Shown here piece after piece: positions 6,908 to 32,000 of a DNA stretch of 32,000 nt; position 1 is the first letter of the stretch; every line of letters starts with the position of its first letter. Source of the DNA: Candidatus Minimicrobia sp. QA0096. Its GTDB lineage: Bacteria; Patescibacteriota; Saccharimonadia; Saccharimonadales; Saccharimonadaceae. The translations under genes were made by a program, and so were the position numbers. The DNA lies in the NCBI RefSeq assembly GCF_963967315.1, contig NZ_OZ017288.1:1-32000 (forward strand). Reading direction: 5' to 3'. The notes below the pieces were generated by a model, which ran no database searches, was not told where the DNA came from, and worked only from the letters and a program-made list of their open reading frames with translations.

Positions 6908-8152
6908 ATGAAAATTGTCATTGCTGGTTTTGGTGTTGAAGGTCAATCTAATTTGCGGTATTTTCGAGAGAAATTTCCGGAAGCTGATTTTTTGGTGGCG
7001 GACGAGCGTGAAAAAGTAGATAATTTGTCGGAAAATGTAGCTTATCAGACGGGATTTTCGGGGCTGGAGAACGCGGATTTAATCGTTAGGTCGCCAAGTC
7101 TTCCGCCAAAAAAGATAAAGACTAGCGGTCGAATTTGGTCGGCGACAAATGAGTTTTTTGCCAATTGCCCAGCGACTATAATTGGCGTGACTGGCACAAA
7201 AGGCAAGGGGACGACGTGTAGCTTTATCTCGTCGATTTTGCGCGCGACAGGTAAAACCGTGCATTTGGTGGGGAATATTGGCGTGCCAGCTTTGGATATT
7301 TTGCCAAAAATTGAGAAAAATGACATTGTCGTTTACGAATTGTCCAGTTTTCAATTGTGGGATTTGCAGAAATCTCCGCACGTTGCCGTGGTGCTGATGA
7401 TTGAACCTGATCACTTGAATGTTCACGCTGATTTTAATGATTATTTGGCGGCAAAAGCAAATATTGCCAAGTTTCAAACCGCTGACGATTATGTTGTCTA
7501 TAATTCTCAAAATGAGTTTAGTTCGTCGATTGCAGATGCGAGTTCGGCGCAGAAAAAGGAATATCCATTTGTTCTCTCGGACGATATAACTTCTGCGATT
7601 CGCCTGCCGGGGAGGCATAATGTCGACAATGCGTGCGCGGCGATAGCGGCGGTGAAATCGATTTTGCCAAACGTGTCGGATGATGAGATAAAGAAGGGGC
7701 TTAGTGAGTTTACGGGGCTACCGCATCGATTGAAGTTTGTTGCTGAAAAATACGGCGTGAAATATTACGATGACAGCATTTCGACAACTCCGGGCAGTGC
7801 GATTGCGGCATTAAAAGCTTTTGCGGAGCCGAAAATTTTGATTTTGGGCGGCTCGGATAAAGGCGCGGATTATTCTGAATTAGCGAAAGAAATTGCCAGA
7901 CAAAACGTGCGATCGATAATTATCAATGGCGCTAACGCTGATGAAATTAGGGAAGTTTTAAGGGAAGAAAAAATTGATTGCGAAATTGTCCAATTAGATA
8001 TGGCGACAATGAAAGAAGTTGCCAAATCAGCCAAAAATAAAGCGCAATCTGGCGACGTGGTGATTCTTAGTCCGGCGGCCGCCAGCTTTGATATGTTTAA
8101 GAGCTATTCTGATCGTGGTGAGCAATTTGTCGCCGCCGTAGAAGAGCTTTAA
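6908..8152 (+). CDS. murD: UDP-N-acetylmuramoyl-L-alanine--D-glutamate ligase
   Basis: Mur ligase P-loop '[11 protein letters not shown]', then 'HNVDNACAA', 'LPHRLKFV', '[10 protein letters not shown]' and 'ILGGSDKG'. The N-terminal Rossmann segment '[11 protein letters not shown]' is typical of MurD. Confidence 0.9.
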
Positions 8153-8688
8153 TCTTGATAGACTTCTGGTTTTAAGACGCCGATGTATGGCAAGTTGCGA
8201 TATTGTTGGCGAAAATCCAGACCGTAGCCAACGACAAATTCATTCGGTGTATCGATGCCGACGTAATCGGCTTTTGCGTCAACTTCGCGCCGTGCTGGTT
8301 TGTCTAATAGCGAGCATATTTTTACCGACGCAGCATTTTTTGCGGCAAATAACTCTCTTAGCGCCTGGGCGGTTCGACCGCTGTCAATTATGTCCTCAAC
8401 TATCAACACATGCCTATCCGTTACGTCGGTATCCAAATCTTTGATAATTTTTACAGATCCAGAAGATTTTGTGTCGTCGCCGTAACTGGAAACCGCCATG
8501 AAATCAATTTCCATATAGCAATCCATCGCCTGTATCAAGTCGATCATAAACGGCGCCGCGCCGCGTAAAATACCCACGACAACAGGATTTTCATCGTGAT
8601 AATCCTCGGTCAATTTTTTCCCAAGTTTTTGAACTGCCGTTTTTATTTCTTCGTTCGTAAATAGAATTTTCTCAATGTCTTTATCCAT
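8149..8688 (-). CDS. hpt: Hypoxanthine-guanine phosphoribosyltransferase
   Basis: PRPP-binding motif '[13 protein letters not shown]', plus '[15 protein letters not shown]' and '[20 protein letters not shown]'. 179 aa. Confidence 0.9.
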
Positions 8689-11563: not shown

Positions 11564-12703
11564 ATGAAACTACGGTCCACCACACCAGTTTCGGCATCAT
11601 TAGTCAGCAGAGCGTCTCTGGTGGCGATGTCTGCATTGCTCGCTGGATCGGGCATTTTTGGCTTGGCATCACACGTATTAGCTCGCGACTATAACGCCGA
11701 AATTCAGGCAAAACAACAAGAAGCAGACAACTATAATTCTGAGGCTTCGCGCTTGGGTGAGATGGCTGATAGTTTACAGGCGGAACTTGATAAGATAAAC
11801 GGACAGATATCAGCTATTCAAGCGCAGATTTCTGATAGCCAAAAGAAGATTAATAGCCTTAATGATCAGATAAAAAAGAACGAAGAGCTAATTAAGCACA
11901 ATCGTAAAGCGATGGGGCGAATTTTGGCGGATTTGTATGTTGATGATCAGATTTCGCCGCTGGAGATGCTTGCTAGTTCAAAAAATATTAGCGATTACAT
12001 CGATAAGCAAGAACAGCGTAATTCTTTGAAAACTTCATTGAATGATAAGATCAAAGAAATTAAGTCTTTGCAGAAAAAGCTGGAAGAGAATAAGAAGTCT
12101 GTCGAGAATACACTTCGCGACCAAGAATTGCAACGTAATGCAATGGCAGCCAAACAGTCTGAGAAGGCAAAACTGATTACTGACACGAAGAATGACCAGA
12201 ATAATTATGCTGCATTGGCGCAAAAGCGCAATTCCGAGGTAGCGAAGTTGCGAGAAGAGCAGGCTGCAGCCAACCGACGAGCTCTTGGCGGTAGTAATGT
12301 TTCGATTCCGGGCGGTGTACCTGGCGGCGGCGGTTATCCTGGTGCTTGGGCAAGTGCGCCCCTTGATGCTTATGTTGATCCATGGGGATTGTACACGCGT
12401 GAATGTGTGAGCTACGTGGCTTGGAAAATTCATAGCACTGGACGATATGTTCCGCATTTTGGTGGCGCAGGCAACGCGAATCAATGGCCGTCAACTGCAG
12501 CGCGCTATGGTATTTCTAGCGGCTCAACGCCAAAAGCTGGTGCGGCTGCTGTGATGAATATTGGATATTATGGACACGTTATGTATGTTGAGTCCGTCAA
12601 TGGCGACGGAACTATTACCGTTAGCGATTATAACTTTGCCTGGGATGGTTTATATAGGTATTACACACGCTCAGCTTCAGGATTGACCTACGTTTACTTC
12701 TAA
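11564..12703 (+). CDS. Secreted coiled-coil plus CHAP-domain peptidoglycan hydrolase (PcsB-like)
   Basis: N-terminal signal peptide or anchor, a heptad-rich region of about 200 aa, and a 'GGVPGGGGYPG' linker. The C-terminal CHAP domain has the catalytic Cys in 'RECVSYVAWK' and His in 'YGHVMYVESV'. It lies immediately downstream of ftsEX. Confidence 0.75.
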   Translation: MKLRSTTPVSASLVSRASLVAMSALLAGSGIFGLASHVLARDYNAEIQAKQQEADNYNSEASRLGEMADSLQAELDKINGQISAIQAQISDSQKKINSLNDQIKKNEELIKHNRKAMGRILADLYVDDQISPLEMLASSKNISDYIDKQEQRNSLKTSLNDKIKEIKSLQKKLEENKKSVENTLRDQELQRNAMAAKQSEKAKLITDTKNDQNNYAALAQKRNSEVAKLREEQAAANRRALGGSNVSIPGGVPGGGGYPGAWASAPLDAYVDPWGLYTRECVSYVAWKIHSTGRYVPHFGGAGNANQWPSTAARYGISSGSTPKAGAAAVMNIGYYGHVMYVESVNGDGTITVSDYNFAWDGLYRYYTRSASGLTYVYF

Positions 12704-14444: not shown

Positions 14445-15605
14445 ATGGAAAAACCAAAACCAACACAGAGCCACGAACAAGAACGACCAAAAACACTGGA
14501 AGACTATGTAGTTGCAACTTTTCATGCCGATGCTGACCCAGATATTACAACATCTCCGCTAACTGTTATTCGCAGTGGTCAAGACGGAAAAGGTGTCAGG
14601 CATGATGGGGGCTGGATTGCTGGCGATATGCTAAGTGTGTGTGATACTGATTCTGAGGAGGGTATTGGTTCGCTTGAGTTGTTTGTGAAAGTACATAAAC
14701 CGATTAAAGTTTATGGAGGGCATGTTTATGAAGAGCATGTTATTGCAACTAAGATTGTGTCATTGAAGAAACTCCAAAGTCGAGAAGCAAATAAAGGTTT
14801 TGACGAATCTTATATTCAGGATCTTTATGGAAAAACTACTGAGGAAATGCTTAAAGAAGGATCGGAGGCTGCTGAGCAAGTTTGGCGGCAGAAACATACG
14901 GCTAGTGATTGGAATAGTCTGTCGACTGCGGAAACGGGGCTAGATGAAAGTGATAGCCCAGAGCTAAATCGTTTTGATAAGAGAGTACTAGAACTGATGA
15001 AGCCTCTAGAGACTGACGTGGACGGAATGTCTTTTAGGGACGATTACACATCTGTGAAGTTGAAATTTGAGCATCTGCTTGATCCGAATTATGTGCCGTC
15101 AAATAATGTAGAGGACGCTGCCGTTAGAAACCCAAAAGGAGTTCCTGTATCTGAGAATAGCTTTAATGCTGCGAAAGAGGCTATTGATAATCTAGCTACG
15201 AATTCGTCGTTAATGCAAATAATTAATCCCGAGAGAGCGCTTGATTCTGAAGTGATCATAAATGGTATTAGAGCTAGTCACCTGACGCGTTGCCGCTTGT
15301 TTGAATATTTAACCTCCAGTCTTGACAGGCTGGCAGCCGTTAATCCAGGCGCTTTGGCAGACAGAGTTCTTCGTAACTCAGAGGATAATCTAAAAGCTCC
15401 TAATTATCTCGGGGGTGATTATTATGCGGGTAAAATGCGCAGTCGTGAATATACTGTAGTGCTGGCAATTGCTATGATGGATGGCTCATTTAATGTAGAC
15501 AGACAAGACAAAACGGTTACTCATTACAGGGGTGACAAGGAGAGAAGTGGTATGCATAGGGATTCTGCAAGGGCACTTCTCGAATATGTAAGAAATAATT
15601 ATTAA
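14445..15605 (+). CDS. Hypothetical soluble acidic protein, 386 aa, no recognisable domain
   Basis: Long ORF with its own promoter and terminator. No TM segment, signal peptide or known motif. A 100-nt hand count gave about 35% G+C, against about 47% in the neighbouring response regulator gene. Confidence 0.6.
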   Translation: MEKPKPTQSHEQERPKTLEDYVVATFHADADPDITTSPLTVIRSGQDGKGVRHDGGWIAGDMLSVCDTDSEEGIGSLELFVKVHKPIKVYGGHVYEEHVIATKIVSLKKLQSREANKGFDESYIQDLYGKTTEEMLKEGSEAAEQVWRQKHTASDWNSLSTAETGLDESDSPELNRFDKRVLELMKPLETDVDGMSFRDDYTSVKLKFEHLLDPNYVPSNNVEDAAVRNPKGVPVSENSFNAAKEAIDNLATNSSLMQIINPERALDSEVIINGIRASHLTRCRLFEYLTSSLDRLAAVNPGALADRVLRNSEDNLKAPNYLGGDYYAGKMRSREYTVVLAIAMMDGSFNVDRQDKTVTHYRGDKERSGMHRDSARALLEYVRNNY

Positions 15606-15995: not shown

Positions 15996-17189
15996 TCAAG
16001 CGGTTTTGGCTATATCTGCCGGTTTTAATACCAATATTTCTCTGGCAACAACTTGATCTTCACGGTAATATAAGAGGTTTTTATCGATAATTTGTTGATA
16101 TCCAAGTTTTTTAAGATTTTTTATCAGAGGCGAGTGAGTAAATTTACCTTCGTGATTTTGCCACGCTGGAACGGCTATGCAAAGCGTCGTGTATGGGCGG
16201 ATTTGCGAATGGATATTTTGCAGAAAATCGCTAATTATGTGATTACAATTTCCGACTACTTCGTGAAGTTTTTCTGGGCTAGGTGGTGCGGAAAACGGCT
16301 GACCTAAATATGTTTCGCAAACAATTCGAGAAATCCGTTTCTTCTGTTCATCTGTTAATTTTACAGAGGTGGCATCGGCCTGATGTGCTTGCCAGAAAGT
16401 GTTTGTCGAAAAAGTTTTTTCTACCCAGTTCATATTTTCGGTCGTGTAAGATATCATCTTATCACTCAAATCACTGCCGTAAGCATTCACGCCGATAAGC
16501 GCAGCTTCTTGTAATACCGTTCCTGTGCCACAAAACGGATCCCAGAGGTAATCGTTAGGTTTTGCGCCAGAAAGGTTAATCATAATTTGTGCAAGCTTGG
16601 GTGGAAGCATTCCCACGAAGGCATCGCGTTTTGGTCGCCCGCGGTCGCGCTGAGTATACGAATTGATATTTTGAGTGCCACGACTTTCAGCGATTATCAG
16701 ATCTCCGTACACGTTCTTAGCTATGATAATTTCAATTTTCGCCTCAGACCTGCCAAGTTTATTATTGTGAGAGGTCGCAGTGGACAGCGCGGCGGTTTTA
16801 TTAGGAATTAGACGCAAACTAACGCCAGATTTTTTCAGGTTGTTTTTTAAGATAATTCCGATTTTTTGGACGTTTCTCGGATCTGTTTTATTGCCATAAA
16901 AACTTATTCCAAGCGTTATTTTTTTCTGACTATTTGAAAGGCTTTTCGTGTATTTTTCAACAATAATTTTTGACGCCTGGAGTAGGGTATTGTGGTCCGA
17001 TTTTTGCGACTTTATCTTCGTTATGACTTGTCCGCACTTAATCGTTCCGCCGAGATTGTCAATTGAAAAATTGTCGCAATTAACCGTGGCGGCTTGGCTG
17101 GAGATTTTTTGGACATTTTTAGCACCGTAAACTGCCTCTAATTCAGCGATAGAGATTTCCGGTTGACGGCCAAGAATAGCTATAAACAT
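15996..17189 (-). CDS. Putative SAM-dependent RNA methyltransferase (UPF0020/Trm11-RlmL-like catalytic domain with a novel N-terminal region)
   Basis: 'RPKRDAFVGMLPPKLAQIMINLSG' followed by SAM motif I 'LWDPFCGTGTVLQEAALIG' and motif II 'AYGSDLS'. The expected (D/N)PP(Y/F) motif is replaced by 'IVCETYLGQPFS'. Confidence 0.5.
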   Translation of the reverse strand: MFIAILGRQPEISIAELEAVYGAKNVQKISSQAATVNCDNFSIDNLGGTIKCGQVITKIKSQKSDHNTLLQASKIIVEKYTKSLSNSQKKITLGISFYGNKTDPRNVQKIGIILKNNLKKSGVSLRLIPNKTAALSTATSHNNKLGRSEAKIEIIIAKNVYGDLIIAESRGTQNINSYTQRDRGRPKRDAFVGMLPPKLAQIMINLSGAKPNDYLWDPFCGTGTVLQEAALIGVNAYGSDLSDKMISYTTENMNWVEKTFSTNTFWQAHQADATSVKLTDEQKKRISRIVCETYLGQPFSAPPSPEKLHEVVGNCNHIISDFLQNIHSQIRPYTTLCIAVPAWQNHEGKFTHSPLIKNLKKLGYQQIIDKNLLYYREDQVVAREILVLKPADIAKTA

Positions 17190-23502: not shown

Positions 23503-24120
23503 TTGACAAAAAGTAGACCTGAGTTTGATAAAATCACATCGTTTGATGAGTTTAATCAATACTATTGGTATCGTGAAGAACTTTCACAGATATGCAGGTC
23601 GCTAGCATTAGAACATAGAGGTACAAAACAAGAACTTAATTATATTATTGAGCAGTACTTTAAGGGTAATTTAATTAAAAAATCATCAATAAAAAACGAA
23701 ACAAAGCAAGTTGAAAATATTACTCTATATATGCCATTACTTGAATGTGGGTTTTCCTTTAATACAAAATTTAGAGAATATTTCTCTGCCGTAACAGGTA
23801 TTGCACCTTTTAAATTTACTGCTGATATGGCTACTGCTTGGAGAAAAGTAAAAAGTGAAAATGATTTGAGTTTTACGATTCAAGATATGCTGAAAGTTTA
23901 TTATGGAAAATCGGATTATGCTAAATATGATAATTCGGTTTGTCAATGGAATCAATTTTTAAAGGATTTCTGTGCAGACGAAAATAGTCGCAACTATTCG
24001 AATAAGTTAAAAGTAGCTGCTATTCTTTGGAAAGAAGTTAGAGATTCAAGAAATGAAAAAATTTATTCAAAGAATCTTTTGACTGAATATGCAGGAAAAA
24101 TAAAAGAGTATCACAATTAG
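23503..24120 (+). CDS. Hypothetical protein with an N-terminal SAP/HeH-like motif, in an AT-rich gene
   Basis: 'YYWYREELSQICRSLALEHRGTKQELNYIIEQYF' looks like a SAP (helix-extended-helix) DNA-binding motif. TTG start with a GAGGAG SD 8 nt upstream. Two 100-nt hand counts gave about 25-30% G+C, against about 53% in a glyQS sample. Confidence 0.5.
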   Translation: MTKSRPEFDKITSFDEFNQYYWYREELSQICRSLALEHRGTKQELNYIIEQYFKGNLIKKSSIKNETKQVENITLYMPLLECGFSFNTKFREYFSAVTGIAPFKFTADMATAWRKVKSENDLSFTIQDMLKVYYGKSDYAKYDNSVCQWNQFLKDFCADENSRNYSNKLKVAAILWKEVRDSRNEKIYSKNLLTEYAGKIKEYHN

Positions 24121-24792: not shown

Positions 24793-25410
24793 ATGGAAAA
24801 AAGTACAGGCGGCGTATCTTTTGGTATTAGATTTATTGACTCTGGTGATGGCTCGGAGAAGTATTCCTCTGTCGAAAGTCGGCGCTTGATTGGAATCTAT
24901 GATGGCGATTGGTCTTTGGAAGAAGATGGGACGGTGAATGCGTCCATGGTGTTTGCCAGAAGAGTGGGTGATATTCGTAGTCATGATAATTTAATAGAGA
25001 AGGTCCGCGGAATCGGTGAGAATATGGCGCGAGTGTCTATTTCAGAGTGTCTGGCGGTTGAAGATGAGGTGAAGGTAAGTGGTTGGCTATTAGCTGATCC
25101 TATGTCGCATAGTGGAATTTCTTTCTTGCGCAAAGTAATACCAACCGAGCTTGTTGTTCCTGATTCCATTGAAAATAACCCTGACGACGATCAGAAGCTA
25201 GAGATCGTCAGACTTGCCTTGCGTGTTGGAGCTGTGGCTTTGCATTGTGCAGGATTGTCATTAGAAGAGCTTAAGGAATCGCCTACTGAGAGTTTCTATC
25301 CGGATAAAGTGGATGAGCTTGTTTCTCGTTTCCATGGCAATGTGGATTTTGGTAGCAAGTGGAGAGAGTATAAGAAAATGGCTAAGGATTTAACGTATGA
25401 AGAAGGCTGA
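24793..25410 (+). CDS. Hypothetical soluble protein, 205 aa
   Basis: ORF behind a strong promoter with no recognisable motif. Its 3' end overlaps the next ORF by 14 nt. Confidence 0.55.
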   Translation: MEKSTGGVSFGIRFIDSGDGSEKYSSVESRRLIGIYDGDWSLEEDGTVNASMVFARRVGDIRSHDNLIEKVRGIGENMARVSISECLAVEDEVKVSGWLLADPMSHSGISFLRKVIPTELVVPDSIENNPDDDQKLEIVRLALRVGAVALHCAGLSLEELKESPTESFYPDKVDELVSRFHGNVDFGSKWREYKKMAKDLTYEEG

Positions 25411-25882
25411 TAATTACGGCGCCAGAGTTAAAATCGAGAATATTATGGAGGGTGAAGTCGACGAGGATTTGTTATTTGCTTTATTGACTAGATTAGTTGT
25501 TAAGGACGAGGTTCTCGATATGGATGTAATGTTGGCTAGTCGCTGTCGTGAGTATTCGGGACATATCATGTTAGCAGAGAAGCGCCTTCCTGGTCGGTCT
25601 ACGTTCATACAATCGCCATTTCAGTTTCCGTATGGTAAAACTGAGCTGCGAAGCTGGCGGGATGGGCGGGGTGTACATTCTGTTGGAGGGATAAGAGGAG
25701 GATTCAGGAAGAATGCTTATTTTTCTTCAGATAATGCGGAATATCTCATAAAGCGAGTGGCTGCCGTGGCTGTTGGGCTTTGCTTGGAAACGCCTTTACA
25801 AGAGATGGATTCTGTCAAGGAATTTTCAGCCGAGGAGCTGGCAGAAGCGTGGCCGAGGCTTAGATACGGAATTTACATTTAA
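25397..25882 (+). CDS. Hypothetical soluble protein, 161 aa
   Basis: Overlaps the upstream ORF (ATGAAGAAGGCTGA). Contains a Gly/Arg-rich patch 'GRGVHSVGGIRGGFRKN'. No recognisable family. Confidence 0.5.
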   Translation: MKKADNYGARVKIENIMEGEVDEDLLFALLTRLVVKDEVLDMDVMLASRCREYSGHIMLAEKRLPGRSTFIQSPFQFPYGKTELRSWRDGRGVHSVGGIRGGFRKNAYFSSDNAEYLIKRVAAVAVGLCLETPLQEMDSVKEFSAEELAEAWPRLRYGIYI

Positions 25883-27682: not shown

Positions 27683-29356
27683 ATGGAAAGTAAAGAATTA
27701 TTAGACAATAACACCAATCTTCAAAATCAAGGCGAAGTTGATTTTTCTCTTGAAAGGAGAGAATTGGCCATGGGATTGGTGGAGACATTTAGCGGAGATC
27801 ACTTAACTCCGTCGCGTAAACTGGCTGCAGAGATTATTATCGGGATGCCGGAAGGTTTAAGTGATAGACGACGCATTGATTATATTACAAGGTCGCTAGA
27901 TGGCGTATCTGAAGAGATTAACAAGGATACTGTTATAGGTATAGTTGAGGACTATAAGGTCTTACAAGAGGCTTTTTCGTCGTACATGGAAGATATTGAT
28001 GAGGGCTCGCTAGCAGGAAAAGCGCTAAAGCTTAAGGACAATCAAACAATTCCTGACGATTTAGACATGGATGGTGATGATTATGGTAAGAGCCCGTGGG
28101 CTGAAAATCCGTCAATTCCAGCACCGCATCTTGATAACTTGATAAAGGTATTCTCAACAAAAGGCGAAGGAGCTGAAGGTGTAGGTCTAGAGACTGCGAT
28201 GATTGCTGGAGCTATAACCTTATCTAACTTAAAAATCGCCCCTTATCATAGCGCGTTCGCGTATAAATGTGCAGTGTTTGCTGAAAATTTCTTAATTCCA
28301 GTATGTAGTATTATTGGGCTAGACAACTTGGAATCTGAGCTAAAAGATGAAATTGGTGTTATGACGGGGCGTAATATTGGCGATGCTTTATATCGCAAAG
28401 ATGCCTTGAGCAGTGATATCGATTCGATCATGAATGAGGTGGACAGGGTTGTGTCGTTGCATTTTGGTAGCAGGTATTCGACTGATCCTACACGATTTGA
28501 TTTTGCTATGGGTAACTTTAATGGTGTGTTCTCTGAGCTGCTAGGGGAGTCAGATCTGAAACCTGCCGTAAATACCAATTCCTCGCATAGTACATTTTTT
28601 GGATCTGGTACTGTAAAAACCCCGAATGGGGCAGAATTGGAAGTAAGGGCTCGAGGTAAGGGCCGCGGCTCGTATTGTAAAAAATTACTACAGACTATAG
28701 GTTATTATGATAAACGTTCTCAGCCTCTGAAAGATTCGGGAGAATTCCATCCGATCGACTTATATGGTATGACGGTAATTTGTCAAGACAACGAGCAGCT
28801 AGCCGATGCCTATGCTGGTGCCGTGATTAAGGCTATTAACGGCGGTAAGATTACTCCATATCCAGCTCCAGGACGGAAAAGCGAATGTTTTGTTGTTAAG
28901 GGTTCTTCGGATTTTCAGGAGAAGATCCGCCAGAAAATTATCGATAAGATACCAGGCGTTGACATGAAAATGTTCAGTTTTAAGGATAGTAGTAGCGGAT
29001 TTACAGATGCGAAGATTACGGGATTCTATGCAACTGACGATGGAAGAATTCCGTATGCTCCGTTTGAGATGCAATTTTCTACGCCAGATGCTCGTCTGGT
29101 GGCTCGTACTGGTAAAAAGGCGGCACACTTTTTCTTTAAGCTGCAGAAAATTTACGGTGATTTGGTCAATATGAGTGATGAAACAGCAGAGAAGATAACT
29201 GATATTTGGCAGCGTAAGCAAGACTTCTTTACAAACTGTGCTGATGGAGAGAAGGAATCTCATTTAACAAAACAAAGTCGTGAGCGCGTTCGTAAATTTA
29301 AGAGAATGAACAGCACGTATCGCAAGATAGCCAGGCGAGCTATGATTAGTGTATAA
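27683..29356 (+). CDS. Divergent RelA/SpoT-homologue (RSH): degenerate HD-like region plus RelA_SpoT-type nucleotidyl/pyrophosphotransferase core, no TGS/ACT half
   Basis: By-eye alignment to the Rel N-terminal domain: 'VRARGKGRGSYCKKL' (RxKxxxSxxxK), 'IDLYGMTVIC' (DxxxxRxx), 'FKDSSSGFTDAKI' (FKDY..GYxSxH) and 'FEMQFSTPDARLVARTGKKAAHFFFK' (EIQIRT..MH..AE.G.AAHWxYK). Upstream, 'VFAENFLIPVCSIIGLDNLESELKDE' corresponds to 'ETxEIYAPLAHRLG..KWELEDL'. The HD dyad position reads 'VIGIVEDY'. Confidence 0.55.
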   Translation: MESKELLDNNTNLQNQGEVDFSLERRELAMGLVETFSGDHLTPSRKLAAEIIIGMPEGLSDRRRIDYITRSLDGVSEEINKDTVIGIVEDYKVLQEAFSSYMEDIDEGSLAGKALKLKDNQTIPDDLDMDGDDYGKSPWAENPSIPAPHLDNLIKVFSTKGEGAEGVGLETAMIAGAITLSNLKIAPYHSAFAYKCAVFAENFLIPVCSIIGLDNLESELKDEIGVMTGRNIGDALYRKDALSSDIDSIMNEVDRVVSLHFGSRYSTDPTRFDFAMGNFNGVFSELLGESDLKPAVNTNSSHSTFFGSGTVKTPNGAELEVRARGKGRGSYCKKLLQTIGYYDKRSQPLKDSGEFHPIDLYGMTVICQDNEQLADAYAGAVIKAINGGKITPYPAPGRKSECFVVKGSSDFQEKIRQKIIDKIPGVDMKMFSFKDSSSGFTDAKITGFYATDDGRIPYAPFEMQFSTPDARLVARTGKKAAHFFFKLQKIYGDLVNMSDETAEKITDIWQRKQDFFTNCADGEKESHLTKQSRERVRKFKRMNSTYRKIARRAMISV

Positions 29357-29357
29357 T
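29352..29357 (+). promoter_or_regulatory. -10 box TATAAT, 7 nt upstream of rnhA ATG, overlapping the upstream stop codon
   Basis: TATAAT at 29352-29357 contains the TAA stop (29354-29356) of the RSH-like gene. ATG at 29365. Confidence 0.5.
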
Positions 29358-29364
29358 CATATTA

Positions 29365-29790
29365 ATGACAACTTACTATACTGACGGCTCTGCTTCGCCG
29401 AATCCCGGTCCAGGTGGGTTTGCAGTTATTCGTGATCTTCAACCTTATATTTTGGGGTCGGAAGATGGCGATACTACTAATATTCGCATGGAGGGCAAAG
29501 CTCTAATTGCAGCATTGAAAGATGCTAATGGTGCGCCGTGCGTGATTTATTCTGATAGTGAATTTTGGATTAATGTGGTTACCAAGTGGGCGCCGGGCTG
29601 GGAAAAGCGCGGTTGGACGAAGAAGGGTGGCGAGATTAAAAATCTGGACATCGTGCGTGAACTGTACGAACTATATTCGAATTCTCAGGCGGATTTGCGT
29701 TGGGTGCGTGGTCATGAAGGCGATGAAGGGAATGAGCTGGCGGACGAATGGGCTAATCGAGCGCGTGAAGGTGAAAGATTGACAAAATAA
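29365..29790 (+). CDS. rnhA: Ribonuclease HI
   Basis: 'YTDGSASPNPGPGGFAVI', 'MEGKALIAALK', 'IYSDSEFWINVVTKWAPGWEKRGWTKKGGEIKNLDI' and 'WVRGHEGDEGNELADEWA' cover the DEDD catalytic positions. Confidence 0.88.
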   Translation: MTTYYTDGSASPNPGPGGFAVIRDLQPYILGSEDGDTTNIRMEGKALIAALKDANGAPCVIYSDSEFWINVVTKWAPGWEKRGWTKKGGEIKNLDIVRELYELYSNSQADLRWVRGHEGDEGNELADEWANRAREGERLTK

Positions 29791-29814
29791 CAGCTAGCGA
29801 CATCTGATAAAAAT

Positions 29815-29823
29815 TGCTATACT
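29815..29823 (+). promoter_or_regulatory. Extended -10 TGcTATACT, 6 nt upstream of ATG 29830
   Basis: TGcTATACT at 29815-29823. Confidence 0.5.
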
Positions 29824-29829
29824 AGAAAA

Positions 29830-30807
29830 ATGGAAGAAGTGAGGGAAACGACTGATATTTTTTTGTGGGCAAATCAAAACGACGCAAAGAAGAATGATTT
29901 ACAGATAGAGCTGTTCTTATTTAGCAAAAATTACACGCCGTATTTTATGCCGATAAAAGGAGATGTTGAGCAGCAACTCAGACCGCTGTTCTTGTTTGAT
30001 TATATCAATCAGGTCAATTTGGGTGCGGGTACTGGATTGAGCGTTCGCGATTATGAATTGAGCGAATCGGAAGATAATGTTCTGTTGCGGACTGACTTGG
30101 AAAAGGTTGGGCGAGCTGAAACGCTGATTCATTTGATTGAACATGAGCGTCATGACATCGTGGAGTTTTCGGAGACTGAGCACGAATTCAAGCGTATGAA
30201 GGGAATTGTGGCGCGATTTACCGATCCGAACAACCCTGACACGACATTCTACACGGTTAAGTTGATTCAGCAAGGTCAGACGCTAAAGAGTGCGTTGGCT
30301 TGGGAATTTTCTGATGGCAAATTTGGTTCATTTAATGCGGAAGTTGGTTTTAAGGTTCCAGATGATAATCAAGTTTTGATTGTTGGTAAAGATATTTTTG
30401 CGTTTAATCCTGGAAAATTTGAGCGAATGTTTGGCTATGAGTATAAAAAGCAGGTGATTGCTGATAAAAAAGTAGCGGAAATTGAGAAGGAATATAAGCT
30501 AAGTTTTCCGGAGGGAATGGATCTTAACGCGTTGGTGAAGGAGCGCAAAAAGACGATTAATAAATTGCAGAAATTGGAAATCGGCGCGGTTAAGCAGGAA
30601 GATGTTTTGGATTATGCTGATGAGATGCAATTGGAATTGATGAGCGATGATAATGGCGCGATTATTATCATGGACGGCAATGATTTGGATATGTTCGTAA
30701 ATCTCATTAACGAGGATTATATCGAGAGTAAAATCACGGGCAAGCGTTACGAAATTAAGTCGAAGAAGCTGCTCGGTGAGCCAGAGGGCGAACCGCCACG
30801 AGGCTAA
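29830..30807 (+). CDS. Hypothetical soluble protein, tentatively DUF4868 / KwaB-like
   Basis: 325 aa, acidic, no TM segment. 'IELFLFSKNYTPYFMPIKGDVEQQLRPLF', 'IFAFNPGKFERMFGYEYKK' and the C-terminal 'DLDMFVNLINEDYIESKITGKRYEIKSKK' resemble my recollection of DUF4868-family patterns. No search was run. The CDS itself is well supported; the family call is tentative. Confidence 0.4.
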   Translation: MEEVRETTDIFLWANQNDAKKNDLQIELFLFSKNYTPYFMPIKGDVEQQLRPLFLFDYINQVNLGAGTGLSVRDYELSESEDNVLLRTDLEKVGRAETLIHLIEHERHDIVEFSETEHEFKRMKGIVARFTDPNNPDTTFYTVKLIQQGQTLKSALAWEFSDGKFGSFNAEVGFKVPDDNQVLIVGKDIFAFNPGKFERMFGYEYKKQVIADKKVAEIEKEYKLSFPEGMDLNALVKERKKTINKLQKLEIGAVKQEDVLDYADEMQLELMSDDNGAIIIMDGNDLDMFVNLINEDYIESKITGKRYEIKSKKLLGEPEGEPPRG

Positions 30808-30808
30808 A

Positions 30809-32000
30809 ATGGATCAAGAATTAGCGTTGGCTATTCTGCTGAGCGGTCGGTCGGCGTTGCTGACTGGTGCGGCTGGAACGGGCAAAACTTACCTGTTGAA
30901 TACTTTTATTGCGCAGGCGCGAAAACGGGGTAAAAAGGTGTCGGTAACAGCGACAACTGGTCTGGCGGCGACACATCTTGGTGGCAATACGATTCACAGC
31001 TGGAGTGGCATTGGTGTGAATGATCGTTTGCCGAACAATTTTTTTGAACGATTGTCAAAAACGCGGCGTGATGTGATTTCTAAAACCGACGTGTTGATCA
31101 TTGACGAGATTTCAATGCTTCACGATTTTCGGCTGGATATGATTGATAAGGTTTTAAGAACCGTCAGGGAAAATGATCAGCCGTTTGGCGGTATTCAGTT
31201 GGTGATGAGTGGCGATTTTTTCCAATTGCCGCCAGTGAATCGTCCGAACGAGCAGGGCGGCGGATTTGTGGTTTATTCTGATGCTTGGCAAGAACTTCAG
31301 CCGGCGGTTTTATATTTGGAGCGACAATATCGTCAGAATGATGAACAGCTTTTGGAGATTTTAACAGCCTTAAGGACTGGCGATGTTAGGCGACGCCACG
31401 TCGAAGCGTTGCTAGCACGCACGGAAATTGAGCCGCCAGATGAAGATATTACGGAGTTGCATACCGTAAACGTCGACGTTGATGATATCAATATTCAAAA
31501 ATTGGCGGAATTGCCAGGAGAAGAGCGTTCGTATCAGCAGACGACGACAGGCTCGAAAATTTATGTAGAGAATCTGCAAAGGTCAGTTTTGGCTCCAGAA
31601 AATCTGGTAATTAAGCTGGGTGCGTTGGTGATGGCGGTTAAAAATTCGCCGCAAAAATTATATGCCAATGGTAGTATTGGAACGGTCGTGGATTTCGAGC
31701 CGTTGACGGAATATCCTGTTGTTGAGTTTCGAGATGGTCGTCGAGTGACGATGGTACCGGATGTTTGGGAATTGCGGGACGGAGAGCGTAAACGAGCGAG
31801 TATTTCTCAGGTTCCGCTGCGTTTGGCGTGGGCGATAACGGTTCACAAAAGTCAGGGAATGACGCTTGATGCGGCTAAGATTGACCTGAGAAAGGCGTTT
31901 GTTGAAGGTATGGGTTATGTAGCTTTGAGTCGCGTGCGAGATCTGGACAATTTATATCTATACGGAATTAACCGTAGGGCGCTGGAAGTTTCTCCTGACG
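30809..32000 (+). CDS. Pif1/RecD-like SF1 DNA helicase, 3' end beyond the window
   Basis: Absent from the ORF track because there is no stop codon within the window. My translation gives Walker A 'LLTGAAGTGKTYL', 'ATTGLAATHLGG.TIHS', Walker B 'VLIIDEISML', 'GIQLVMSGDFFQLPPV', 'LERQYRQ', 'AWAITVHKSQGMTLD' and 'GYVALSRV'. ATG 30809 is 1 nt after the upstream TAA, and a GAGG lies 5 nt before it. Confidence 0.85.
   Translation, partial: MDQELALAILLSGRSALLTGAAGTGKTYLLNTFIAQARKRGKKVSVTATTGLAATHLGGNTIHSWSGIGVNDRLPNNFFERLSKTRRDVISKTDVLIIDEISMLHDFRLDMIDKVLRTVRENDQPFGGIQLVMSGDFFQLPPVNRPNEQGGGFVVYSDAWQELQPAVLYLERQYRQNDEQLLEILTALRTGDVRRRHVEALLARTEIEPPDEDITELHTVNVDVDDINIQKLAELPGEERSYQQTTTGSKIYVENLQRSVLAPENLVIKLGALVMAVKNSPQKLYANGSIGTVVDFEPLTEYPVVEFRDGRRVTMVPDVWELRDGERKRASISQVPLRLAWAITVHKSQGMTLDAAKIDLRKAFVEGMGYVALSRVRDLDNLYLYGINRRALEVSPD

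What the first reader, a model, noticed from the sequence alone, without database searches (positions are those of the whole stretch)
29830..32000. KwaB-like (DUF4868-type) ORF translationally coupled to a Pif1-family helicase, with no KwaA
The 325-aa ORF resembles the DUF4868 family from memory. The best-known member of that family is KwaB of the Kiwa anti-phage system. Canonical Kiwa pairs KwaB with the multi-TM protein KwaA, but no membrane protein is adjacent here. Instead, the stop codon (30805-30807) is followed 1 nt later by the ATG of a Pif1/RecD-like SF1 helicase. A GAGG inside the upstream coding end precedes that ATG, a classic translational-coupling layout. I do not know a described defence or repair system with a DUF4868-like plus Pif1 architecture. 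The pair is therefore a candidate two-gene nucleic-acid surveillance module. There are three caveats. The family call is unverified. Short hand counts suggest different base composition (about 38% G+C for the first gene, about 55% for the helicase). The helicase is truncated by the window edge.
Basis: partly seen in the sequence, partly recalled or inferred. Interest (0 to 1): 0.7.

Follow-up and report, generated by a model that had tools for sequence, protein, structure and literature searches.

The report
Orphan KwaB homologue beside Pif1 helicase
A real but KwaA-less relative of the anti-phage protein KwaB sits next to a Pif1 helicase in a Saccharibacteria chromosome, where it behaves like an inherited housekeeping gene in a conserved gene block rather than like a mobile two-gene defence system.

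Summary
The sequence observation holds. ORF 29830-30807 (325 aa) passes Pfam KwaB/DUF4868. Its AlphaFold model matches only KwaB crystal and cryo-EM structures. One base after its stop codon begins a Pif1-family helicase, cut by the window end at 397 of 424 codons. No KwaA is present. The claimed G+C contrast is wrong: 41.5% versus 47.4%, with equal GC3.

The organism is a Nanosynbacter-type Saccharibacterium. The gene is vertically inherited: relatives occur in at least 506 species genomes, dN/dS is about 0.01, and divergence tracks neighbouring housekeeping genes. It lies in a syntenic block recO-aaRS-rnhA-kwaB-like-pif1-mraZ/dcw.

The 1-2 nt junction is confined to the Nanosynbacter clade (62 of 64 loci). 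In deeper lineages zero to several genes separate the pair. One lineage and eight phage contigs carry the gene without Pif1. RNase HI is linked about as tightly as Pif1. The phage copies lie within recombination and replication modules. Both genes are dispensable in Southlakia Tn-seq.

I read it as a KwaA-independent, KwaB-fold DNA-binding protein co-expressed with RNase HI and Pif1, probably acting in DNA maintenance. An obligate KwaB-Pif1 defence module is not supported. It is a new variant of a known kind, of moderate interest.

The parts
29365..29790 (+). rnhA (RNase HI, 141 aa). It is the upstream member of the co-directional rnhA / kwaB-like / pif1 cluster.
   Evidence: Pfam PF00075, E=5.8e-32. 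It lies within 2 kb of the KwaB-like gene in 54 of 56 Nanosynbacter-type loci and 25 of 38 environmental loci. It is sometimes directly downstream instead of upstream. A promoter-like site at 29328-29357 precedes it.
29791..29829 (+). 39-nt spacer between rnhA and the KwaB-like ORF. It contains TGcTATACT (29815-29823), an extended -10-like element ending 6 nt before the ATG. There is no Shine-Dalgarno sequence.
   Evidence: Read directly from the sequence. The promoter scan did not call it because no -35 element is present. Its function is inferred only. No terminator-like hairpin lies in this spacer.
29830..30807 (+). KwaB-like (DUF4868) ORF, 325 aa. It has a two-domain KwaB fold plus a short disordered acidic C-terminal tail (GEPEGEPPRG).
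   Evidence: Pfam KwaB scores 35.8 bits against GA 26.3. PADLOC KwaB gives E=5.9e-13. The AF2 model has pLDDT 86.8. Foldseek against the PDB finds only KwaB entries 9mtn/9nyu/9mrx, with E from 5e-14 to 4e-12 over the full length. dN/dS is 0.011.
30800..30803 (+). GAGG, 5 nt upstream of the helicase ATG. It is a possible Shine-Dalgarno sequence embedded in the last Arg-Gly codons of the KwaB-like ORF.
   Evidence: The purine-rich motif follows from the conserved P-R-G C-terminus. It is also present where pif1 is not adjacent.
30809..32000 (+). Pif1-family SF1B helicase, first 397 of 424 codons. It carries Walker A GAAGTGKT (residues 20-27), Walker B DEISM and motif III GDFFQLPPV.
   Evidence: Pfam PIF1 E=4e-39 and AAA_30 E=1.6e-19. 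PHROG 325 Dda-like helicase E=1e-62. The full length comes from L011 10980-12254. A terminator-like 13-bp hairpin follows the gene in L011 at 12495-12524, before mraZ.

Best explanation
The ORF encodes an orphan (KwaA-less) member of the KwaB/DUF4868 fold family, belonging to a clade confined essentially to Saccharibacteria and their phages. In this Nanosynbacter-type genome it is a vertically inherited, strongly constrained chromosomal gene. It is probably transcribed as part of a co-directional rnhA / kwaB-like / pif1 unit, with the helicase ATG one base after its stop codon, which would favour co-expression.

By homology with E. coli KwaB, it most likely forms dimers that bind ssDNA, dsDNA and their junctions without sequence specificity. 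E. coli KwaB is a dimeric clamp that binds ss/dsDNA through DUF4868 and stalls forks. Because there is no KwaA to tether or gate the protein, I infer that it works as a soluble DNA-binding factor in replication-fork, recombination or repair transactions, or in handling incoming DNA. It would act alongside RNase HI and the 5'-3' Pif1 helicase, not as a Kiwa-type membrane-triggered immune sensor.

The tight junction with pif1 is a lineage-specific outcome of conserved synteny plus genome compaction. The functional link to Pif1, if any, is facultative.

Shown: family and fold, absence of KwaA nearby, synteny, selection, the distribution of adjacency, the phage contexts, and non-essentiality in a relative. 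Inferred: DNA binding, co-transcription and coupling, and the cellular role.
For: Family and fold.

Vertical inheritance and constraint:
- More than 120 clusters of at least 73% identity, the named ones all Saccharibacteria.
- At least 506 species genomes carry a relative.
- Identity to distant lineages matches the neighbouring housekeeping genes. Against L006: KwaB-like 74%, aaRS 69%, RNase H 75%, RecO 60%, Pif1 68%.
- dN/dS against L018: KwaB-like 0.011, Pif1 0.028, CofD 0.045.
- Native base composition.

Synteny: the block recO-aaRS-rnhA-kwaB-like-pif1-mraZ-rsmH recurs across lineages.

Adjacency statistics:
- Set A (Nanosynbacter-type): Pif1 lies downstream in 64 of 64 loci, and the gap is 15 nt or less in 62.
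- Set B (environmental): Pif1 lies within 5 kb in 26 of 34 loci. None has a gap of 15 nt or less, 8 have 16-200 nt, and 12 have more than 1 kb.
- Among set-B loci with at least 7 kb on both sides, 14 of 15 syntenic loci have Pif1 and 0 of 5 non-syntenic loci do.

Operon-like layout: no terminator-like site lies between the three genes, and a strong hairpin follows pif1.

Phage members of the clade (38-49% identity) lie inside recombination and replication modules:
- L098: RecT, PDDEXK-FtsK, KwaB-like, VRR-NUC, SNF2.
- L094: PDDEXK, AAA_24, exonuclease, SSB, KwaB-like.
- L100: RecT, KwaB-like, ResIII helicase.

KwaB biochemistry (DNA binding through DUF4868, a preference for ssDNA, fork stalling): PMC11785009. 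Basic residues align with KwaB R142 and R167, and invariant lysines lie next to the positions of N134, K187 and R233.

Tn-seq in Southlakia: the DUF4868 gene SEML1_0265 and the Pif1 gene SEML1_0264 are both non-essential (PMC10633639 Table S1).
Against: - No experiment addresses this clade. DNA binding is inferred from about 15% identical structures, and the alignment to the KwaB contact residues is weak (E=0.04-0.26).
- Non-essentiality fits a defence role as well as an accessory repair role.
- Every characterised member of the fold family is a defence protein.
- Phage-borne copies could equally be superinfection-exclusion genes.
- Co-transcription and translational coupling are not demonstrated. 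An extended -10-like element directly before the KwaB-like ATG could give it its own transcript.
- The swapped but still adjacent gene order in Southlakia hints at a stronger Pif1 link than passive synteny alone would give.
- I could not search whole genomes for a distant KwaA.
Confidence: 0.5

Rival explanations
1. One reading: KwaB-like plus Pif1 form a dedicated two-gene nucleic-acid surveillance or defence module. KwaB-like would bind invading DNA and the helicase would act as effector or processor, with translational coupling fixing the stoichiometry.
For: - A 1-2 nt junction is conserved in about 62 species-level genomes.
- Pif1 lies on the same strand, downstream, within 5 kb in 26 of 34 divergent loci.
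- The order is swapped but adjacency is kept in Southlakia.
- KwaB is a defence protein.
- The helicase shows moderate similarity to helicases of candidate defence systems: PDC-S68 and type IV RecD, E about 1e-19 to 1e-20.
- Both genes are dispensable in co-culture.
Against: - The genes do not travel together. Pif1 is absent from 0 of 5 non-syntenic chromosomal loci, from L090 and from eight phage contigs.
- Variable genes, up to 4.5 kb, separate the pair in many lineages, and L165 keeps the block without Pif1.
- RNase HI is linked about as tightly as Pif1.
- Inheritance is vertical, with dN/dS about 0.01 and native composition. This contrasts with the HGT-dominated, MGE-associated pattern of Kiwa.
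- The surroundings are housekeeping genes, not a defence island.
- The PADLOC helicase hits cover only the generic SF1 ATPase core.
Confidence: 0.12
2. A stand-alone, KwaA-independent KwaB-type immunity protein. It would be a constitutive DNA-binding block to incoming phage or plasmid DNA. Its neighbourhood with rnhA and pif1 would be incidental synteny, and the phage copies would be superinfection-exclusion genes.
For: - The only characterised function of the fold is anti-phage and anti-plasmid defence.
- The gene persists without any constant partner in several contexts.
- It is non-essential in Tn-seq.
- Orphan KwaB hits are reported on oral phage vOTUs (PMC13532340).
- The slot just upstream is a hypervariable, prophage-prone site.
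Against: - Phylum-wide vertical retention in genomes of about 0.7 Mb, with housekeeping-like constraint, is atypical for defence genes.
- In Kiwa, KwaA supplies both the trigger and the spatial restriction that prevents self-targeting. An ungated, non-specific DNA clamp would need another safeguard.
- The phage copies sit inside recombination and replication modules rather than at moron or lysogeny positions.
Confidence: 0.22
3. A domesticated or decaying prophage gene with no current host function. Its adjacency to pif1 would be meaningless.
For: - Phage-encoded relatives exist.
- A prophage integrase lies immediately upstream of rnhA in strain L092, and a 97% identical fragment is filed under a 'Siphoviridae sp.' record.
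- In a rough NJ tree the phage copies branch between the chromosomal clades.
Against: - The ORF is intact in all 80 species genomes examined in set A.
- dN/dS is 0.011, the lowest of the block.
- The position is syntenic across deep lineages.
- In L092 the gene is host flank, not prophage interior.
Confidence: 0.04

Closest known systems
KwaB of the Kiwa defence system (E. coli O55:H7; PDB 9mtn, 9nyu, 9mrx; Pfam PF16162/DUF4868)
   Same: It has the same two-domain fold over the full length: an N-terminal Rossmann-like domain plus the C-terminal DUF4868 domain (Foldseek E=5e-14). It passes the Pfam gathering score. The length is similar, about 315-325 aa. Basic residues lie at or next to several DNA-contact positions.
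   Different: - Identity is only 14-15%, and it lies outside all PADLOC KwaB sub-models (best 46.7 bits).
- No KwaA is present.
- It is inherited vertically under strong constraint, rather than spread by HGT on mobile elements.
- It has a clade-specific acidic disordered C-terminal tail.
- Its neighbours are RNase HI and Pif1, or phage recombination genes.
Kiwa system (KwaA tetramer plus KwaB dimers, a membrane supercomplex)
   Same: It shares the KwaB component, and by inference the DNA-binding activity.
   Different: The defining membrane sensor KwaA is absent from the locus and from the 32-kb window. The trigger and localisation logic of Kiwa therefore cannot apply as described.
Bacterial Pif1-family / RecD2 / Dda-like SF1B helicases
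   Same: The downstream gene has the PIF1 core with Walker A and B motifs, and weak matches to the 2B/SH3 domain. It matches PHROG Dda-like helicase.
   Different: It is a short form: 424 aa in Nanosynbacter against 505-528 aa in other Saccharibacteria, so a C-terminal extension is missing. I know of no described partnership of a Pif1 helicase with a KwaB-fold protein, and literature searches found none.
Phage recombination modules (RecT / exonuclease / SSB / Sak4-like AAA_24 with accessory DNA-binding proteins)
   Same: Phage members of this KwaB-like clade are embedded in such modules.
   Different: No KwaB-fold protein is an established component of these modules. No PHROG family matches it, and GenBank phages hold no homologue.

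Membership tests
KwaB / DUF4868 protein family (PF16162) | Profile match above the curated threshold | tested here: met
   Pfam scores 35.8 bits against GA 26.3, covering profile positions 4-186 of 186. Seven PADLOC KwaB models hit, the best at E=5.9e-13 over positions 15-312 of 320.
KwaB / DUF4868 protein family (PF16162) | Two-domain KwaB fold (Rossmann-like N-terminal domain plus DUF4868 C-terminal domain) | tested here: met
   The AF2 model has pLDDT 86.8. The only significant PDB matches are KwaB chains, E=4.7e-14 to 4.3e-12, about 328 aligned columns, TM 0.45-0.50.
KwaB / DUF4868 protein family (PF16162) | DNA-contact residues of E. coli KwaB (N134, R142, R167, D169, K187, R233) | tested here: inconclusive
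   A profile-to-PDB alignment with E=0.04-0.26 places conserved Lys at the positions of R142 and R167, and invariant Lys adjacent to those of N134, K187 and R233. D169 is not conserved. The alignment is too weak to be decisive.
Kiwa defence system (KwaA + KwaB) | A four-TM KwaA gene in the same operon as kwaB | tested here: not met
   The neighbours are RNase HI and Pif1, with no TM segments. There are no PADLOC KwaA hits among the 24 window proteins scanned. Small upstream ORFs in related loci are not membrane proteins. Whole genomes could not be scanned.
Kiwa defence system (KwaA + KwaB) | Patchy, HGT-driven distribution with frequent association with mobile elements and defence islands | tested here: not met
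   The position is syntenic and divergence tracks the housekeeping neighbours. dN/dS is 0.011 and composition is native. The neighbourhood is housekeeping. A minority of clade members are phage-borne.
Kiwa defence system (KwaA + KwaB) | Anti-phage or anti-conjugation activity | not testable with these tools
   This needs experiments. The only functional data are that the Southlakia orthologue is non-essential in Tn-seq.
Pif1-family SF1B helicase | PIF1 helicase core with Walker A and B motifs, and a 2B/SH3 domain | tested here: met
   PF05970 E=4e-39. The motifs GAAGTGKT, DEISM and GDFFQLPPV are present. Pif1_2B scores below threshold in this short form (18.9 against 23.9 bits) but passes in the L006 orthologue (25.1 bits). 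The Pif1 signature motif was not examined.
Self-contained two-gene module (defence-system criterion) | The genes co-occur and move together across lineages and contexts | tested here: not met
   Adjacency tracks synteny only. Pif1 is present in 14 of 15 syntenic loci and 0 of 5 non-syntenic loci, and is absent from L090 and from eight phage contigs. The intervening gene content is variable.

The most novel reading that the evidence does not exclude
KwaB-fold proteins have a non-immune role that has gone unrecognised. In Saccharibacteria and their phages, an orphan KwaB clade would act as a DNA fork- or junction-binding hub. Its conserved acidic C-terminal tail, reminiscent of the SSB C-terminus, would recruit RNase HI, Pif1 or recombination proteins. 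The Kiwa effector KwaB would then be an exaptation of such a DNA-maintenance factor. Alternatively, the rnhA / kwaB-like / pif1 trio could be a compact end- or R-loop-processing machine in genomes that lack RecBCD-type enzymes.
Probability: 0.2. Interest if true: 0.75.

Novelty: new variant of a known kind. Interest (0 to 1): 0.48.

Why it matters
KwaB is known only as the effector of the membrane-gated Kiwa defence system. Here a whole phylum with reduced genomes (about 0.7-1 Mb) retains a KwaA-less homologue under very strong purifying selection. It lies in a replication and repair neighbourhood, and the phages of these bacteria carry it within recombination modules.

If the clade acts in DNA maintenance, that would show where a defence effector came from, or what else the fold does. 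It would also assign a function to a conserved 'dark matter' gene in Patescibacteria. Naturally transformable species (Southlakia, TM7x) now make such genes genetically testable.

There is also a practical caution. DefenseFinder or PADLOC KwaB hits in CPR genomes and oral viromes should not be read as Kiwa systems.

Tried and rejected
- Exact-sequence look-up of the window protein: not on record. I used 98-100% identical relatives instead.
- Single-sequence phmmer against the PDB found no KwaB. A family profile ranks KwaB first, but only at E=0.04. The family link therefore rests on Pfam, PADLOC and Foldseek.
- The first genome scan, with a 24-sequence alignment, failed for lack of conserved stretches. 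I repeated it with closer sequences. That returned only the closest 80 loci, all Nanosynbacter-type. Deeper diversity had to come from the metagenome scan and four context look-ups.
- Foreign origin by base composition: rejected.
- KwaA candidates: the multi-TM proteins of the window and the small ORFs upstream of the KwaB-like gene in other lineages were all rejected.
- Defence-island context: rejected. PADLOC hits elsewhere in the window are generic ABC-ATPase, SMC or methyltransferase similarities.
- PHROGs and GenBank phages hold no homologue of the KwaB-like protein.
- A P0137-based scan of viral contigs found nothing.
- TM7x transcriptome supplements gave no usable entry for this gene.
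- The NJ tree is rough and was used only qualitatively.
Full report
**1. What is in the sequence**

The + strand carries an ATG-to-TAA ORF at 29830-30807, encoding 325 aa. Its stop codon (30805-30807) is followed by a single A and then by ATG at 30809. This ATG opens an ORF that runs off the window end, with 397 codons inside the window. GAGG lies at 30800-30803, 5 nt before that ATG.

The first ORF passes Pfam PF16162 (KwaB/DUF4868) at 35.8 bits against a gathering score of 26.3. It also hits seven PADLOC KwaB models, the best at E=5.9e-13 over nearly the full length. The second ORF is a PIF1-family helicase (PF05970, E=4e-39). It carries Walker A GAAGTGKT, Walker B DEISM and motif III GDFFQLPPV.

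The upstream gene is RNase HI (29365-29790; PF00075, E=5.8e-32). None of the neighbours has a transmembrane segment. None of the 24 window proteins scanned matches a PADLOC KwaA model.

The two genes have 41.5% and 47.4% G+C, GC3 of 47.2% and 46.1%, and the window as a whole is 43.7%.

**2. Is it really KwaB-like?**

At the sequence level the relationship to characterised KwaB is remote. A single-sequence search of the PDB finds nothing. A 30-sequence family profile ranks KwaB chains 9o0i and 9mrx first, but only at E=0.04 and 0.26.

The fold settles the question. An AlphaFold2 model built on that alignment has mean pLDDT 86.8. Its only significant PDB matches are KwaB structures 9mtn, 9nyu and 9mrx. 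These give E from 4.7e-14 to 4.3e-12, about 328 aligned columns covering both domains, and 14-15% identity.

According to the Kiwa paper (PMC11785009):
- KwaB has an N-terminal Rossmann-like domain and a C-terminal DUF4868 domain that binds ssDNA and dsDNA non-specifically, with a preference for ssDNA.
- KwaB dimers stall phage replication forks.
- KwaA tethers and activates KwaB at the membrane.

In the weak profile alignment, conserved lysines of the present family fall at KwaB R142 and R167. Invariant lysines lie next to the positions of N134, K187 and R233. D169 is not conserved. This is suggestive but not decisive.

**3. Organism and inheritance**

The named homologues are from Candidatus Saccharibacteria. 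More than 120 clusters (90% identity level) are at least 73% identical to the window protein. The closest 80 are Nanosynbacter-type genomes at 76-100% identity. They include the complete chromosomes OX335598.1 and Ca. Minimicrobia vallesae NZ_CP076459.1.

An exhaustive HMMER search of 1.84 billion representatives found only 190 clusters with E<1e-3. The clade is therefore narrow.

Divergence of the protein tracks that of its housekeeping neighbours:

| Protein | Identity to L006 | Identity to four deep syntenic loci (L109, L142, L131, L122) |
|---|---|---|
| KwaB-like | 74% | 39-46% |
| aaRS | 69% | 63-68% |
| RNase HI | 75% | 67-72% |
| RecO | 60% | 36-40% |
| Pif1 | 68% | 48-63% |

Against Ca. 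M. vallesae (L018), dN/dS is 0.011 for the KwaB-like gene, 0.028 for pif1, 0.009 for rnhA and 0.045 for cofD. This is the signature of a vertically inherited gene under strong purifying selection. It contrasts with the HGT-dominated, MGE-associated pattern reported for Kiwa.

**4. The neighbourhood and the adjacency test**

Gene calls around close and distant homologues show one syntenic block. It runs: two-component system, recO, a class II aaRS, variable genes, rnhA, kwaB-like, pif1, variable genes, then mraZ-rsmH and the dcw cluster. The rest of the window is housekeeping: SerRS, SecA, a Mur ligase, a release factor, XseA and others.

I measured the distance from the KwaB-like gene to pif1 by tblastn in two sets of loci.

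*Set A* is 80 Nanosynbacter-type species genomes. All 64 loci with at least 2 kb of downstream sequence have pif1 downstream. The gap is 15 nt or less in 62 of them. The junction reads ...P-R-G TAA, 1-2 nt, ATG GAT CAA.

*Set B* is 80 environmental metagenome loci, about 40-46% identical to the window protein. Among the 34 loci with at least 5 kb of downstream sequence:
- 26 have pif1 on the same strand within 5 kb.
- None has a gap of 15 nt or less.
- 8 have gaps of 16-200 nt, 6 have 201-1000 nt, and 12 have more than 1 kb of intervening, variable genes.

Among the 20 set-B loci with at least 7 kb on both sides, 15 retain synteny markers, and 14 of those have pif1. The other 5 are non-syntenic, and none of them has pif1. 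The neighbours in the non-syntenic loci examined (three of these five plus L119) are a histidine kinase and AlaRS, SDR and CorA proteins, or patatin and ThiF. In a rough NJ tree the non-syntenic copies form one subclade, which suggests one or a few relocation events.

Further cases:
- L004 has 4.2 kb and seven genes between the pair.
- L088 has two opposite-strand genes between them.
- L089 has five genes between them.
- L090 has no pif1 within 8 kb.
- L165 keeps the block but lacks pif1.

RNase HI is linked about as tightly as pif1. It lies within 2 kb in 54 of 56 set-A loci and 25 of 38 set-B loci. In four loci (L115, L117, L132, L149) it lies directly downstream of the KwaB-like gene; in the three where pif1 is also on the contig, that puts it between the KwaB-like gene and pif1.

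In the cultivated Southlakia epibionticum ML1 the order is rnhA (SEML1_0262), a hypothetical gene, pif1 (SEML1_0264), the DUF4868 gene (SEML1_0265), then a GH1 gene and yvcK. The pair is swapped but still adjacent, about 100 nt apart (PMC10633639 Tables S1 and S2).

The pattern is what conserved synteny plus genome compaction would produce. The swapped order and the rnhA shuffles hint weakly that the three genes tend to stay together.

**5. Expression layout**

No terminator-like hairpin lies between rnhA, the KwaB-like gene and pif1. In the 100%-identical genome L011, a 13-bp hairpin with a T tract follows pif1 and precedes mraZ. Promoter-like sites precede the 557-aa gene and rnhA.

The 39-nt spacer before the KwaB-like ATG has no Shine-Dalgarno sequence. 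It does contain TGcTATACT ending 6 nt before the ATG. That could be an extended -10 element for a leaderless start, but this is inference only.

The GAGG before the pif1 ATG is produced by the conserved C-terminal Arg-Gly codons. It is also present where pif1 is not adjacent. It can serve as a ribosome-binding site, but it does not prove selected coupling.

Gene callers chose GTG 30776 as the helicase start. Orthologues with separate intergenic regions start exactly at the residue equivalent to ATG 30809.

**6. Phage-borne members**

IMG/VR contigs carry homologues at 38-49% identity. None of them has pif1. In each contig annotated here (L094, L098, L100) the gene lies inside the early recombination and replication region:
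- L098 and L099: integrase, lysozyme-like, RecT, PDDEXK-FtsK fusion, KwaB-like, VRR-NUC, SNF2 helicase, PAPS-reductase/DUF3440, ParB, and small terminase gp3.
- L094: PDDEXK (DUF3799), AAA_24, exonuclease-like, SSB, KwaB-like, then later the portal gene.
- L100: Gp157-like, RecT, a 240-aa protein, KwaB-like, a 146-aa protein, and a ResIII helicase.

L091 (the contig carrying P0137) has the same PDDEXK-FtsK gene upstream.

L092 (98% identity) and the BFVD entry A0A8S5QWK1 (97% identity) are host flank next to a prophage, not phage interior. PHROGs and GenBank phages hold no homologue.

A 2026 oral virome paper lists orphan KwaB hits on vOTUs (PMC13532340).

**7. Functional data**

In Southlakia Tn-seq, both SEML1_0265 (DUF4868) and SEML1_0264 (Pif1) are called non-essential at all three passages, with flat read counts. 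rnhA shows a late growth defect.

**8. Interpretation**

The evidence supports an orphan, KwaA-independent KwaB-fold protein that is a stable chromosomal gene of Saccharibacteria. In Nanosynbacter it is packed against pif1, and probably co-expressed with rnhA and pif1.

I think a soluble DNA-binding role in fork, recombination, repair or incoming-DNA transactions is most likely (confidence about 0.5). The reasons are:
- housekeeping-like selection and inheritance;
- the recurrent DNA-metabolism neighbourhood, in both chromosomes and phages;
- the known affinity of KwaB for ss/dsDNA junctions;
- the absence of the component that gives Kiwa its trigger and its protection against self-targeting.

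The module idea fails the co-transfer test, which is the usual criterion for a multi-gene system.

**9. A clade-specific feature**

All members end in a disordered acidic tail (pLDDT about 45). Examples are EPEGEPPRG, PPSDDDLLKEIS and KPDSDEDNPLSQIPEGA. The E. coli KwaB chains in the PDB lack such a tail.

From general knowledge, this recalls the acidic C-terminus of SSB, which recruits RNase HI, RecO and helicases. This parallel is speculation and is the basis of the 'novel case'.

**10. Novelty**

I found no paper describing KwaA-less KwaB homologues as conserved Saccharibacteria genes, or a KwaB-Pif1 or KwaB-RNase HI association. Wang et al. 2023 only list the DUF4868 annotation in a supplementary table.

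I rate it a new variant of a known kind, of moderate interest. It is not a new defence system on present evidence. It is a well-defined, genetically testable case of a defence-effector fold in a housekeeping-like setting.

Noticed in passing
window 27683-29356 (+): The 557-aa gene just upstream of rnhA is hypervariable between strains whose flanking genes are 98-100% identical. The L011 allele (547 aa) is only 22% identical to it. The L011 allele weakly matches the RelA/SpoT nucleotidyltransferase domain (PF04607, E=0.005, below threshold). Both alleles share an E-x-Q-F-x-T...ARTG...H motif. In several genomes tblastn finds no counterpart, and dN is 0.28 where one is found. It may be a diversifying RSH-like (toxSAS-like?) gene.
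   Followed up: partly
L092 about 270 nt upstream of rnhA (equivalent to the window slot at about 27.6-29.3 kb): In one 98%-identical strain the same slot holds a tyrosine integrase that is 41% identical to the integrase of the L098 phage. The contig is classed as viral in IMG/VR. The site between cofD and rnhA therefore looks like a prophage integration or variable hotspot.
   Followed up: partly
window 23503-24120 (+): This gene has 29% G+C and GC3 of 21%, in a 44% G+C window. It carries a SAP_new25 domain (PF18953, E=2.6e-20). In L001 and L003 the slot instead holds an acetyltransferase and an AstE/AspA-like gene, so it is a variable islet.
   Followed up: no
window 14445-15605 (+) and 15996-17189 (-): One of only two long minus-strand genes (the other is the phosphoribosyltransferase at 8149-8688) is a DNA methyltransferase (UPF0020 and N6_N4_Mtase; it also hits PADLOC type II MTase and mad2 models). 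Next to it lies a 386-aa protein with no family match and a low GC3 of 33%. This may be a restriction-modification pair or a remnant of one.
   Followed up: no
window 30809-32000 and L011 10980-12254, compared with L004, L006 and L088: Pif1 is 424 aa in Nanosynbacter-type genomes but 505-528 aa in other Saccharibacteria. Wang et al. assign a 'tri-helical' ECOD domain to residues 436-505 of the Southlakia protein. The short form has therefore lost a C-terminal domain.
   Followed up: no
C-termini of KwaB-like proteins in the window (residues about 316-325) and in loci L088-L180: Every clade member ends in a low-confidence acidic tail. Two or three conserved tip types recur...EPPRG...DDLLKE(I/V)x, and ...(A/S)QIPxGA. 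The phage copies have other tails (...SQMNMNV). E. coli KwaB has no such tail.
   Followed up: partly
whole window: GC skew is strongly positive (about +0.13 to +0.34 in most 1-kb windows; lower only at about 8.0-9.0 kb and 15.0-17.5 kb, around the two long minus-strand genes) and 30 of 32 long ORFs lie on the + strand. This fits a leading-strand replichore of a streamlined genome. No tRNA genes occur in the 32 kb.
   Followed up: no
window 24793-25410 and 25397-25882 (+): Two overlapping ORFs of 205 and 161 aa have no Pfam or PADLOC match. They are conserved in the same position in L001-L003.
   Followed up: no
L089 (GCA_035459365.1 contig DATHYB010000026.1): This contig is labelled 'Candidatus Limnocylindrales' but carries the Saccharibacteria-type arrangement DUF218, KwaB-like, then Pif1. 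It is probably a mis-binned contig.
   Followed up: no
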